NCBI RefSeq assembly: GCF_029227855.1
Contig: NZ_CP074356.1
Reading direction: 5' to 3' (one strand)
DNA length: 64,000 nucleotides
From: Escherichia coli
Lineage (GTDB): Bacteria; Pseudomonadota; Gammaproteobacteria; Enterobacterales; Enterobacteriaceae
Positions 18,221-20,179 of this stretch are shown here, in pieces (the first letter of the stretch is position 1; the number at the start of each line of letters is the position of its first letter). The translations under genes and the position numbers were made by a program. The notes under the pieces were generated by a model that saw nothing but the letters and a program-made list of their open reading frames with translations, was not told the DNA's origin and did not search any database.

Positions 18221-20179
18221 TTATCCAATATTGTTTTTATAGTCAATGGTTTTTTTTATTAAGTTATAAGAAGCGATAGGGTTTCGTTTAACGCTTTTGA
18301 TAAAGACAAACGCCAAAGCTGTTTTCTTATTCTCTTGAGATAACATGATATGATTGGAGTTTAATAGACCAATAGGAGATTCAATATTTTTAGTTTTAAA
18401 AATACTGTTGTGAGTAAAATATAAGTTACATTCTTTTTTTGCGAACTTTTCGAACCCCAAATCACTTAATAATATTATGTCTGAATAGTCTTCAGTATAT
18501 ACTAAATTTGGATTGATAAGGTTGTATTCTTTATTCGGGTATTTAGAAACTAAAGTGTCTAGCAATAATTTGTCTGAGACAATATCTATACAATCAAAAC
18601 AATCGGTGTTGTCTAAGAGTGTATATAATTTATGTTGATTTATGTCTTTATACCCTTTCGCCCAGATAAGTAATCTTTTTGATAATTTATCCTTTAGTCT
18701 ATTGTTTCCTGCTTTTACTCTACGATAAAGTAAATCAGAATTCTCTCTGAATCCAAGAGGGTCTAATATATAATCATTCGAATCAATTGGTGACTTGAAA
18801 CTATAAAGAATTGGTTTGTTTGCTTTTTGTCTTATTCTATATAGATCATTTATGTGCAAGCTTAATGATTCATCAAAAATAATAAGTTCTGGGTTTTCTT
18901 TTGAAATGATTTTCAAAATGTCATCTTGAGCGAGATTTTGCGGGAGAATATGTTCACAAAATTGACTTACTTCTGAACCATATCGACCTGAATAAATAAA
19001 GACAGGGATAATATTACTATCATTATATAAATTAAAATAGAACTTAATTGCATGCACAGTGGATGCAGCAATTAACACTTTTACAGGGGTTATCGGTAAT
19101 GAAATATCCTGTTCATAAATCTCGTATGGGATATAATCCCTTTTATCATGTTCTGATTTAAATGTTATTCCTCTATATATTTTTTTCTCTAATCCCGTAA
19201 TAAATCTTTCAACGTGTCGCAACCCTTTTAAAAAATCCTTTCTTAATATGTTACATGCTGTTTCAAAACAGCTTGGGTTTACTGGTTGATTAATAAACTC
19301 AATGATTTCTTTTGCGAAGGTTGATATATCCCCATAAGGAACAACCCTAATAATTTCAGGAGGGGCTATTTCTGAGTTTCCGCCAACATCCCAACAGACT
19401 ACAGGTGTATATGTCGATAAAGACTCCAAAATAGCCATTGAGCAGTTTTCAAATTTGCTTAGAGATATAGCTACCTTAGCTCGGGATAGAAAATTAAATT
19501 TTTCATTTCCCTCAATATGTTCAAGGAAAGAAACATTAGAATACTCTTTAGATAAAGTGATTTTTTTCTCTTGTTTTCCGACAATAAAAATACTTAGATC
19601 ATTAGGTAAATTTTTTATGAGTGGTTCAATAAATTCAATTCCCTTAAGGTTGTTAAATCTGCTGAAGAAAATTACATCTATGTCTTTTTCAATTACACTT
19701 TTAAGAAGGTCTTTTTTTAGTGTGATTGGATTTTTATATACATGTATATTTGTAATGTCTAAATCATCTTTAAGTAGTTCTAACATGCCGTAAGATGGAG
19801 AGGAGACGGCTTTGGCTTTATAAATCGCTCTGCATTCATCTGAAAAACGAGCCTCATCAGGCTCTTCATTGATGATTCTTTTATATAGATGAAAGGGGCA
19901 ATGTAATCTGATATGTATATTTGCATCTTTTGGGAATAAAAGAGTTGGAGATTGTGATTCTGCTGCTTCAATTATTGTAGTGTGGTTTATTGCTTTTTTA
20001 TTTAAATTTAGATACGTGAATTTTCTAAAGTCTGGCATCGACATATCGTAAGGCTTTACAAACTCTTTATATGGGAAATCATAAACTTCATTGACTGTTT
20101 TAATATAATTAGTCACACCATTGCTGAATTCTGGATTATAGATAAAGTGATTGATGGATATTCTTTCAAGAGATTTCAT
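18221..20179 (-). CDS. two-domain glycosyltransferase (GT-B/GT4-like N-terminal half; C-terminal half of unclear family)
   Basis: 652 aa; ESLSTYTPVVCWDVGGNSE resembles the E-x7-E region of GT4 enzymes; the C-terminal half has a weak S-x-x-GFE motif reminiscent of KpsC/KpsS-type domains; 6 bp upstream of the next gene. Confidence 0.65.
   Translation of the reverse strand: MKSLERISINHFIYNPEFSNGVTNYIKTVNEVYDFPYKEFVKPYDMSMPDFRKFTYLNLNKKAINHTTIIEAAESQSPTLLFPKDANIHIRLHCPFHLYKRIINEEPDEARFSDECRAIYKAKAVSSPSYGMLELLKDDLDITNIHVYKNPITLKKDLLKSVIEKDIDVIFFSRFNNLKGIEFIEPLIKNLPNDLSIFIVGKQEKKITLSKEYSNVSFLEHIEGNEKFNFLSRAKVAISLSKFENCSMAILESLSTYTPVVCWDVGGNSEIAPPEIIRVVPYGDISTFAKEIIEFINQPVNPSCFETACNILRKDFLKGLRHVERFITGLEKKIYRGITFKSEHDKRDYIPYEIYEQDISLPITPVKVLIAASTVHAIKFYFNLYNDSNIIPVFIYSGRYGSEVSQFCEHILPQNLAQDDILKIISKENPELIIFDESLSLHINDLYRIRQKANKPILYSFKSPIDSNDYILDPLGFRENSDLLYRRVKAGNNRLKDKLSKRLLIWAKGYKDINQHKLYTLLDNTDCFDCIDIVSDKLLLDTLVSKYPNKEYNLINPNLVYTEDYSDIILLSDLGFEKFAKKECNLYFTHNSIFKTKNIESPIGLLNSNHIMLSQENKKTALAFVFIKSVKRNPIASYNLIKKTIDYKNNIG

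What the first reader, a model, noticed from the sequence alone, without database searches (positions are those of the whole stretch)
18221..20179. Second region 2 enzyme is a two-domain protein whose C-terminal half may be another KpsC/KpsS-type module
The N-terminal half of the 652 aa protein has a GT4-like E-x7-E region (ESLSTYTPVVCWDVGGNSE). The C-terminal 300 aa are not obviously a classical GT-A or GT-B domain but contain an S-x-x-GFE...F motif (LLSDLGFEKFAKKECNLYFTHNSIF) loosely resembling the GFEALL...FYAGWG signature of KpsC and KpsS. If correct, the cassette would encode more than one ulosonic-acid transferase module, which would constrain the polymer structure.
Basis: inference. Interest (0 to 1): 0.45.

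Follow-up and report, generated by a model that had tools for sequence, protein, structure and literature searches.

The report
Degenerate Kdo-transferase module on capsule glycosyltransferase
The back half of this E. coli capsule enzyme is a very diverged relic of a KpsS/KpsC-type Kdo transferase that has lost its catalytic residues, so it should not be counted as an extra sugar-adding module when predicting the capsule's structure.

Summary
The 652-aa ORF is real (minus strand, 18221-20179). It is identical to K126_9 of the 2026 E. coli capsule catalogue and homologous to K6_7 of serotype K6.

- **N-half (aa 1-327):** a complete GT4 GT-B enzyme. The true EX7E motif is E244-E252.
- **C-half (aa ~366-650):** no Pfam, NCBIfam or PDB sequence hit. 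It is very rare (five 50% clusters among 1.84 billion, plus K6_7) and models as a second double-Rossmann unit.
- **Ancestry:** it shows no direct similarity to KpsC/KpsS. Bridging proteins from Cupriavidus, Aeromonas and others (same GT4 half plus a bona fide Capsule_synth domain) link it by profile comparison: X family vs bridge 95%, E 5e-8, and bridge vs KpsC/KpsS 98%, E 4e-15. Shuffle controls score far lower.
- **Catalysis:** every defining catalytic element is missing or unconserved. These are the general-base Glu, the QXXXD nucleophile, the HP CMP motif, and the adduct and acceptor residues. The quoted "GFE" is not conserved.
- **Where the active modules are:** the intact GT107 module and a GT29-like module sit in the adjacent 800-aa partner, which accompanies all six family members.

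Most likely this is a non-catalytic pseudo-glycosyltransferase kept as a structural or docking module.

The parts
18221..20179 (-). ORF X652 (652 aa): K126_9 / WP_000838177.1, a two-module protein
19199..20179 (-). aa 1-327: complete GT4 GT-B glycosyltransferase (two Rossmann halves plus a C-terminal helix); 96 residues invariant among six homologues
   Evidence: Pfam PF00534 E 4e-14; AF2 full-length secondary structure; conservation
19424..19450 (-). true EX7E motif ENCSMAILE (E244...E252), invariant
19085..19198 (-). aa 328-365: low-confidence linker with invariant Y335, G337, H344 and P365
18230..19084 (-). aa 366-650: second double-Rossmann unit, a degenerate Capsule_synth/GT107-like pseudo-glycosyltransferase domain
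18737..18763 (-). aa 473-481 D-P-L-G-F-R-E-N-S: retained N-subdomain motif D-x-x-G-x-x-x-x-S, aligned with KpsC-N D88...A96/S97 ([12 protein letters not shown])
   Evidence: merged alignment; invariants D473 and S481
18383..18409 (-). aa 591-599 N-S-I-F-K-T-K-N-I: 'S-[IL]-[FL]-x-N-K' motif with invariant K597, shared with the bridge family (SLLDNKDV) and with KpsS (ALYDIKGL)
15812..18214 (-). partner ORF N800 (800 aa, K126_10), 6 nt downstream of X652
17081..18148 (-). N800 aa 23-378: intact GT107 beta-Kdo transferase module (QVEED at 195, HPD at 233, GFEA at 282); N-terminal basic KILKLIKNPKIFFHD motif just upstream at aa 3-17
   Evidence: Pfam Capsule_synth E 3e-39; motifs; dbCAN/CDD entries in PMC13171606 supplement
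16523..16933 (-). N800 aa 428-564: TPR region
   Evidence: InterPro rows in PMC13171606 supplement
15815..16522 (-). N800 aa 565-800: GT29-like (sialyltransferase-like, CMP-sugar) module
   Evidence: Pfam PF00777 E 1e-14; weak PDB matches to ST6GalNAc2 and ST3Gal1
14772..15800 (-). galE (UDP-hexose 4-epimerase)
14102..14683 (+). hexapeptide-repeat acyltransferase (probable O-acetyltransferase)
20373..21838 (-). kpsM and kpsT (ABC transporter), directly upstream of and co-oriented with X652

Best explanation
X652 is the hexosyltransferase subunit of a two-protein capsule polymerase.

Its N-half is an active-looking GT4 retaining glycosyltransferase. The donor is inferred to be UDP-Gal, because galE sits in the cassette.

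Its C-half descends from a KpsS/KpsC-type retaining beta-Kdo transferase module. That module was once fused to this GT4, as it still is in Cupriavidus, Aeromonas and related loci. The C-half has since lost the general base, the QXXXD nucleophile, the HP CMP-binding motif and the Kdo-adduct residues. It therefore no longer transfers Kdo.

Kdo transfer is now supplied in trans by the adjacent 800-aa partner, which carries an intact GT107 module, a TPR region and a GT29-like module.

The dead module keeps its double-Rossmann fold. It most likely serves as a structural or docking platform that holds the GT4 domain in a complex with the TPR-bearing, membrane-targeted partner.

Shown here: homology, fold, motif loss and gene linkage. 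Inferred: inactivity, the donor sugar and the scaffold role.
For: 1. Rarity and fixed architecture. Exhaustive phmmer found only 4 other 50% clusters among 1.84e9 representatives, and all are GT4 plus this domain. K6_7 is a sixth member.

2. Homology chain. A scan of species-representative genomes found the same GT4 subfamily (36-40% identity) fused to a domain that Pfam calls Capsule_synth (47 and 34 bits, cut-off 20) and that has QLEND, PHP and NSTV motifs. hhalign gives X6 vs bridge 94.9%, E 4.7e-8 over 280 collinear columns, and bridge vs KpsC/KpsS 98.4%, E 4e-15. Controls are much lower: 25 column shuffles reach at most 20.1 against real scores of 51-64, the reversed alignment scores 14.7, and the GT4 half scores 13.7. 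In HMMER with 10,000-12,000 decoys, L8c scores 30.3 bits, L9c 28.2 and P0018c 25.8, against best decoys of 14-16.

4. Catalytic loss. No HP dipeptide occurs in any C-half and there is no conserved QxxxD. The E of ExGF is replaced (SFKSP, LSK, SSKSP, and so on). The equivalents of W42, D67, Y93, K133 and Y134 are not conserved. Residue roles come from PMC10148158 and PMC12887879.

5. Relaxed but maintained. The C-half is 13-30% identical against 43-62% for the N-half, with 8 invariant residues against 96. Even so, a 328-codon frame stays open in six lineages, where chance gives 3.5e-13.

6. Partner correlation. All 6 X-family loci have an adjacent (overlapping or 4-18 nt away) homologue of N800's TPR-GT29-like part. 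An intact GT107 module (QVxxD, HPD, GFEA) is present in all five loci where the contig is long enough to show it; L005 is too short. None of the 4 bridge loci with intact motifs has such a partner.

7. Basic motif. RKLRKLxx(N/D)PxxFFxD is C-terminal in the bridge enzymes, absent from all six GT4-X proteins, and N-terminal in five of the six partners (L005's lacks it).
Against: - No biochemical data exist. Inactivity is inferred from motif loss.
- Alignment in the middle of the C-subdomain (the QxxxD and HP region) is unreliable, so a displaced catalytic residue cannot be strictly excluded. P0001 has D514 near the nucleophile column, and 4 of 6 members have an acidic residue within about 1 position.
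- Invariant K597, D473 and S481 could still bind a ligand.
- The scaffold or docking role is untested. No interface prediction or co-purification data were available, and dN/dS could not be computed because the variants differ by 1 residue.
- The polymer structure of K126 is unknown. K6 is reported as possibly a Kdo homopolymer (PMC13171606), which leaves even the GT4 half's role unclear.
Confidence: 0.65

Rival explanations
1. One reading: the C-half is a functional additional KpsC/KpsS-type ulosonic-acid (Kdo) transferase, which would give the cassette a third active CMP-sugar transferase.
Against: Even the deeply divergent GT140 keeps QXXXD and HP. Here HP is absent from all six members and Q and D are not conserved. 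The general-base Glu and the adduct-binding Tyr, Lys and Tyr are also lost. An intact GT107 module is encoded next door in every locus with enough context.
Confidence: 0.07
2. Neofunctionalised enzyme: the old Kdo-transferase scaffold now catalyses a different reaction (another transferase, a hydrolase or a modifying activity), using new residues such as D473, S481, K597 or H344.
For: A handful of polar residues stay invariant across six very divergent sequences. The domain is maintained in all lineages. The polymer chemistry of K126 and K6 is unresolved (PMC13171606).
Against: Only 8 residues are invariant, and 4 of them lie in the linker. There is no conserved Asp/Glu/His cluster in the cleft-forming loops of the C-subdomain. 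D473 and S481 are shared with ordinary KpsC and KpsS, where no catalytic role is assigned. Identity of 13-30% is unusually low for an enzyme active site under constraint.
Confidence: 0.12
3. The C-half is an unrelated small GT-B-like or double-Rossmann domain, and the link to KpsC/KpsS is an artefact of generic Rossmann similarity and shared composition.
Against: The link to the bridge family is collinear over 280 columns at E 5e-8 and far exceeds the shuffled and reversed controls. The generic GT-B control (its own GT4 half) scores 13.7. The bridge proteins share the same GT4 subfamily at the same position. Shared specific motifs include FDW, PD.I...(D/N), D..G....S and S(I/L)(L/F).NK.
Confidence: 0.08
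4. Functionless relic: the domain is simply decaying and contributes nothing.
For: Conservation is very low and all catalytic motifs are lost.
Against: The frame stays open over about 328 AT-rich codons in six independent lineages (chance 3.5e-13 each). Length and predicted secondary structure are preserved. No family member lacks the domain.
Confidence: 0.08

Closest known systems
KpsS / KpsC modules (CAZy GT107; Pfam PF05159 Capsule_synth), retaining beta-Kdo transferases that build the poly-Kdo capsule anchor
   Same: Common ancestry through intermediates. Both have a two-Rossmann modified GT-B layout. Both share the N-subdomain D-x-x-G-x-x-x-x-S motif and the position of the beta4-helix-beta5 signature. 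The 'S-L/I-F/L-x-N-K' motif resembles KpsS 'A-L-Y-D-I-K'.
   Different: No Pfam hit. The general base (Glu66 in LEDGF), QXXXD (Gln156 and Asp160), HP, and the adduct and acceptor residues Trp42, Asp67, Tyr93, Lys133 and Tyr134 are all lost. The helical insertion is largely missing.
GT4-Capsule_synth fusion polymerases (uncharacterised) of Cupriavidus sp. amp6 (L009, 716 aa), Aeromonas cavernicola (L008) and P0020-P0024
   Same: Same GT4 subfamily (36-40% identity; shared HIRLHCP, VSSPS, SKFENCSM and W(D/N)VGGN motifs). A second domain sits at the same position and is homologous to the X-domain (hhalign 95%, E 5e-8).
   Different: Their second domain keeps ELGW, QLEND, HPLD and NSTV, and ends in the basic RKLRKL..P..FF.D tail. 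Their loci have no TPR-GT29 partner.
K6_7 of E. coli serotype K6 and K126_9 of the kTYPr catalogue (PMC13171606)
   Same: X652 is K126_9, with the same length and the same neighbour, K126_10. K6_7 (655 aa) is a family member with the same architecture and partner genes (K6_8, galE).
   Different: In the tables available here, the catalogue annotates K126_9 only as GT4 (dbCAN). The paper attributes the putative K6 poly-Kdo to the GT29-GT107 ORF and does not discuss the second domain of K6_7 or K126_9. The K6 locus has the classical convergent gene layout, whereas this window does not.
WbbB GT99 and KrkA GT140 (other retaining beta-Kdo transferase families)
   Different: GT99 and GT140 keep QXXXD and HP and are active (PMC12887879). 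The X-domain keeps neither.
Non-catalytic modules of group 2 capsule polymerases (the TPR domain of CpsD; the SH3b-like polymer-binding domain of Bcs3; PMC11666461)
   Same: Accessory, non-catalytic domains fused to capsule GTs that influence acceptor use, processivity or assembly. This is the proposed working analogy for the X-domain.
   Different: Different folds. No pseudo-glycosyltransferase domain was described in the papers read here, and the role proposed here is untested.

Membership tests
Retaining beta-Kdo transferases (GT107/Capsule_synth; also GT99, GT140) | Match to Pfam PF05159 Capsule_synth above the gathering score | tested here: not met
   No hit even at E<=10 for the C-halves of X652, K6_7 and P0018. 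The positive controls N800, KpsS, KpsC and the bridge proteins all hit.
Retaining beta-Kdo transferases (GT107/Capsule_synth; also GT99, GT140) | Statistically supported sequence homology to family members | tested here: met
   Only transitively. X vs bridge: hhalign 94.9%, E 4.7e-8. Bridge vs KpsC/KpsS: 98.4%, E 4e-15. Decoy and shuffle controls were passed. The direct comparison is null at 2-3%.
Retaining beta-Kdo transferases (GT107/Capsule_synth; also GT99, GT140) | Modified GT-B fold: two Rossmann-like domains separated by an inserted helical subdomain | tested here: inconclusive
Retaining beta-Kdo transferases (GT107/Capsule_synth; also GT99, GT140) | QXXXD motif (Asp nucleophile and the Gln that binds the Kdo carboxylate) | tested here: not met
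   No conserved QxxxD. The aligned columns read K/P/L/H/F/N-type residues for Q and D/H/S/E/E/P for D. The definition comes from PMC12887879 and PMC10148158.
Retaining beta-Kdo transferases (GT107/Capsule_synth; also GT99, GT140) | HP motif (CMP binding / general acid) | tested here: not met
   No HP dipeptide anywhere in the C-half of any of the six members.
Retaining beta-Kdo transferases (GT107/Capsule_synth; also GT99, GT140) | General-base Glu (Glu66 of LEDGF in KpsC; EEG in KpsS; ELGW in the bridge family) | tested here: not met
   The aligned segment is SFKSP, LSK, SSKSP, SEPSR, AYSSP or LFA.
Retaining beta-Kdo transferases (GT107/Capsule_synth; also GT99, GT140) | Kdo transfer or a covalent Kdo-Asp adduct with CMP-Kdo | not testable with these tools
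   This needs the LC-MS or TLC assays used in PMC10148158 and PMC12887879.
GT4 retaining glycosyltransferases (N-half) | Pfam Glycos_transf_1 / Glyco_trans_1_4 above the cut-off | tested here: met
   53 and 52 bits against cut-offs of 26.4 and 27, at aa 164-299.
GT4 retaining glycosyltransferases (N-half) | EX7E motif | tested here: met
   E244-x7-E252 (ENCSMAILE), invariant in six homologues.
GT4 retaining glycosyltransferases (N-half) | Complete GT-B fold (both Rossmann halves) | tested here: met
   In the AF2 full-length model, strands and helices at aa 4-148 and 167-297 plus the crossing helix at 302-327.
GT4 retaining glycosyltransferases (N-half) | Donor and acceptor specificity (UDP-Gal is inferred) | not testable with these tools
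   The only evidence is the presence of galE in the cassette in 3 of 6 loci.
Pseudoenzyme (pseudo-glycosyltransferase) domain | Homologous to an enzyme family but lacking its catalytic residues | tested here: met
Pseudoenzyme (pseudo-glycosyltransferase) domain | Maintained by selection, meaning it has a non-catalytic function | tested here: inconclusive
   The open frame and fold are kept in six lineages (chance 3.5e-13). dN/dS could not be computed and no interaction data exist.
kTYPr K126 capsule locus (PMC13171606) | Region-2 proteins of 652 aa (GT4) and 800 aa (GT107, TPR, GT29-like at the listed coordinates) plus GalE, in group 2A | tested here: met
   The supplement rows for K126_9, K126_10 and K126_11 match the lengths and domain coordinates found here. 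The reference DNA was not compared directly.

The most novel reading that the evidence does not exclude
The dead Kdo-transferase module is a purpose-kept adaptor. After its catalytic function moved to a separately encoded GT107/GT29 protein, the old module was retained as the docking surface, possibly still sensing a nucleotide or the polymer through D473, S481 and K597. It would couple the GT4 hexosyltransferase to the TPR-bearing, membrane-targeted partner to form a two-protein alternating polymerase. If so, it would be the first pseudo-glycosyltransferase shown to organise a group 2 capsule polymerase, and it might help explain the unresolved K6 capsule chemistry.
Probability: 0.3. Interest if true: 0.6.

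Novelty: new variant of a known kind. Interest (0 to 1): 0.5.

Why it matters
**Genotype-to-structure prediction.** Predicting E. coli K antigens from genotype relies on counting glycosyltransferase modules. This module would be missed by sequence tools. Structure-based tools could miscount it as an extra Kdo transferase.

**Affected serotypes.** Showing that it is a catalytically stripped relic changes the module count for K126 and for the classical ExPEC serotype K6. The published K6 structure and the recent mass-spectrometry data disagree.

**Evolutionary series.** The loci document a clear progression: a single-protein GT4-KdoT polymerase, then decay of the fused module, then recruitment of a separate GT107/TPR/GT29 partner, with a basic terminal motif moving from one protein to the other.

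**Experimental handle.** It offers a tractable candidate for studying non-catalytic assembly domains in ABC-transporter-dependent capsule polymerases.

Tried and rejected
1. Word-indexed homology search with the C-half and with its 5-sequence alignment returned nothing, not even the query's own cluster, which is in the database. I treated this as a tool limitation. The exhaustive HMMER search replaced it.
2. Direct tests against KpsC, KpsS and N800 were all null: phmmer and blastp, hhalign and a classical Capsule_synth HMM with decoys.
3. Pfam, NCBIfam and PDB sequence searches of the C-half were null. The weak B12-binding (E 0.06) and Glyco_trans_4-like (E 0.06-0.2) hits were dismissed as generic Rossmann noise.
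4. Foldseek against the PDB gave only weak mixed GT-B and other double-Rossmann hits (E >= 1e-4, TM <= 0.37). afdb50 was unavailable.
5. I considered that the dead module still binds the poly-Kdo acceptor. I rejected this as unsupported: the KpsC acceptor residues Trp42, Glu66 and Asp67 are not conserved, and the retained D473 equivalent (Asp88) has no assigned ligand role.
6. dN/dS within the E. coli / E. marmotae cluster was not feasible because the variants differ by one residue.
7. The catalogue paper's structure-based (Foldseek) table is truncated in the stored copy, so its authors' view of this domain could not be read.
8. An ops (GGCGGTAG) search gave 5 hits against 1.3 expected. Only the one upstream of kpsM is positionally meaningful.
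Full report
**What is there.** The window carries an E. coli kps (ABC-transporter-dependent, group 2) capsule locus between pheV/yqgA and the gsp genes. The AT-rich serotype-specific part spans about 13-22 kb (GC about 0.30 against about 0.55 in the flanks). Read on the minus strand, the order is kpsFEDUCS, kpsMT, the 652-aa ORF at 18221-20179 (X652), an 800-aa ORF at 15812-18214 (N800) and galE, followed by a convergent hexapeptide acyltransferase. X652 is identical to WP_000838177.1, annotated as a GT4 family protein, and occurs in 4 of 5426 complete E. 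coli genomes. The supplement of the 2026 E. coli capsule catalogue (PMC13171606) lists K126_9 (652 aa, dbCAN: GT4 only), K126_10 (800 aa: GT107 at 23-378, TPR, GT29-like at 565-800) and K126_11 (GalE). It also lists their homology to K6_7, K6_8 and K6_9 (41, 37 and 59% identity). The locus is therefore the catalogue's K126, a relative of classical K6.

**Checking the observation.** The N-half is a GT4. Pfam Glycos_transf_1 matches aa 164-299 at E 4e-14, and the full-length AlphaFold model shows a complete GT-B over aa 1-327. The real EX7E motif is E244-E252, immediately upstream, and is invariant. The C-half has no hit in Pfam, NCBIfam or PDB sequences. The quoted S-x-x-GFE...F string is at aa 570-594, and S..GFE is expected 0.006 times by chance.

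**A rare domain with a fixed context.** Exhaustive phmmer of aa 325-652 against 1.84 billion cluster representatives found only four other clusters. All are proteins of about 640-780 aa with the same GT4 half followed by this domain. I found K6_7 in a canine E. coli genome as a sixth member. The GT4 halves are 43-62% identical with 96 invariant residues. The C-halves are 13-30% identical with 8 invariant residues: Y335, G337, H344, P365, D473, S481, I568 and K597. All six genes lie in kps-type loci with Kdo-supply genes. Each sits directly next to a homologue of N800's TPR-GT29-like part, and the GT107 module is either fused to it or encoded separately.

**The homology test.** Direct comparisons with the four Capsule_synth modules in the window, and with a 12-sequence KpsC/KpsS profile, were null. 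A scan of species-representative genomes for the family then turned up Cupriavidus sp. amp6 (716 aa) and Aeromonas cavernicola (a frameshifted gene). Both have the same GT4 subfamily (36-40% identity) followed by a domain that Pfam scores as Capsule_synth (34 and 47 bits, cut-off 20). That domain carries ELGW, QLEND, PHPLD, NSTV and G-x-S-L-L-D-N-K. A further search added seven relatives.

The results with this bridge profile were:

- X-family (6 sequences) vs bridge: hhalign 94.9%, E 4.7e-8, 280 collinear columns.
- P0001 group vs K6_7+P0018: 98.4%, E 1e-14.
- K6_7+P0018 vs bridge: 93.9%, E 1.5e-7.
- Bridge vs classical KpsC/KpsS: 98.4%, E 4e-15.
- Controls: 25 column-shuffled alignments scored at most 20.1 against real scores of 51-64, the reversed alignment scored 14.7, and the protein's own GT4 half scored 13.7.
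- HMMER with decoys: five real bridge sequences (18.7-30.3 bits) beat all 10,000 shuffles (best 16.1), and P0018's C-half scored 25.8 bits against a best decoy of 14.0.

The C-half is therefore a remote member of the KpsS/KpsC-type superfamily.

**Is it a working Kdo transferase?** The literature defines what survives even extreme divergence. [quoted passage not shown] In KpsC-N, Glu66 of LEDGF is the general base. Trp42 and Asp67 bind the acceptor, and Tyr93, Lys133 and Tyr134 bind the adduct (PMC10148158). In the X-family, no C-half contains an HP dipeptide, no QxxxD is conserved, and the ExGF glutamate is replaced. The acceptor and adduct residues have no conserved counterparts, and the helical insertion is largely gone. 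What remains is D-x-x-G-x-x-x-x-S (D473...S481, matching KpsC D88...S97, which has no assigned ligand role) and S-I-F-x-N-K597. By contrast, the GT107 modules of the partner proteins keep QVxxD, HPD and GFEA in all five loci where they are visible. Membership as an active beta-Kdo transferase therefore fails on every catalytic criterion, although ancestry is supported.

**Most likely function.** Four bridge loci with readable context (L008, L009, L012, L013) have GT4 plus an intact Capsule_synth module, fused or adjacent, and no GT29/TPR partner. All six loci with the degenerate module have the partner. A basic RKLRKLxx(N/D)PxxFFxD motif is C-terminal in the bridge enzymes, absent from all six GT4-X proteins, and N-terminal in five of the six partners, L005's being the exception. 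The open reading frame and the predicted fold are kept in six lineages despite the sequence drift (chance 3.5e-13).

I infer that an ancestral single-protein GT4-KdoT polymerase lost Kdo-transferase activity in its fused module once a separate GT107/TPR/GT29-like protein took over. The dead module then persisted as a structural or docking element of a two-protein polymerase. Group 2 capsule polymerases are known to depend on non-catalytic modules such as TPR and SH3b-like domains (PMC11666461). The scaffold role, the inactivity and UDP-Gal as the GT4 donor are inferences. I rejected my earlier idea that the module still binds the Kdo acceptor, because the acceptor-site residues are not conserved.

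**Verdict.** The cassette's two candidate CMP-sugar transferase modules (GT107 and GT29-like) are both in N800. Novelty: a new variant of a known kind, namely a catalytically degenerate, sequence-undetectable GT107-like module present in the K126 and K6 loci. Interest is moderate.

Noticed in passing
window 14102-30228: Unusual gene order. kpsMT and region 2 are co-oriented with kpsFEDUCS and placed after kpsS (kpsFEDUCS > kpsMT > X652 > N800 > galE). The related K6-type locus has the classical convergent layout, with the region-2 genes in the opposite order relative to kpsMT (L011: kpsMT > galE > K6_8 > K6_7 > < kpsSCUDEF).
   Followed up: partly
window 21870-21877 (-): An ops/JUMPStart-like GGCGGTAG lies 32 nt upstream of the RefSeq kpsM start (21838). 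This is consistent with RfaH-dependent read-through from kpsMT into X652 and N800. The window has 5 matches against 1.3 expected.
   Followed up: no
window 18164-18208 (N800 aa 3-17); L009 aa 687-702 of the 716-aa ORF; L011 K6_8 aa 2-17: A basic motif, RKLRKLxx(N/D)PxxFFxD, is C-terminal in single-protein GT4-Capsule_synth enzymes. In the systems with the degenerate module it is N-terminal in the GT29-like/GT107 partners. It is never on the GT4-X protein. Its function is unknown; membrane or complex targeting is a guess.
   Followed up: partly
window 15812-18214 (-): N800 combines an intact KpsC-like GT107 module, a TPR region and a GT29 (sialyltransferase-like) module, in a locus with no sialic-acid synthesis genes. 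The catalogue paper suggests that such GT29 modules transfer Kdo. In other loci the three parts are split into separate genes (L004, L006).
   Followed up: partly
L011 5405-10781 (E. coli strain 1190, K6-type): The K6 region 2 encodes GalE and a conserved GT4 with an intact EX7E. Yet the 2026 catalogue reports MALDI-MS signals consistent with a Kdo homopolymer for its K6 reference strain. The role of the GT4 and GalE pair is therefore unexplained.
   Followed up: no
L008 1190-3479 (Aeromonas cavernicola); L012 9001-11249: The GT4-Capsule_synth bridge gene is split by an apparent frameshift in two genomes. L012 also has fragmented kpsS and epimerase genes. This could be assembly error or locus decay.
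   Followed up: no
L005 1476-3815 (P0018, 779 aa): This family member carries an extra C-terminal TPR-like, arginine-rich extension of about 120 aa. Here the GT29-like gene lies upstream rather than downstream.
   Followed up: no
window 13137-14101: An AT-rich stretch of about 1 kb (GC about 0.32) with no ORF of 100 aa or more lies between yghD/gspM and the acyltransferase. It may be a remnant of earlier region-2 content.
   Followed up: no
The word-indexed protein search returned zero hits for the AT-rich X-domain queries, although the query's own cluster is in that database. It worked for the GC-richer bridge alignment. Negatives from that tool are unreliable for low-complexity or AT-biased proteins.
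   Followed up: yes
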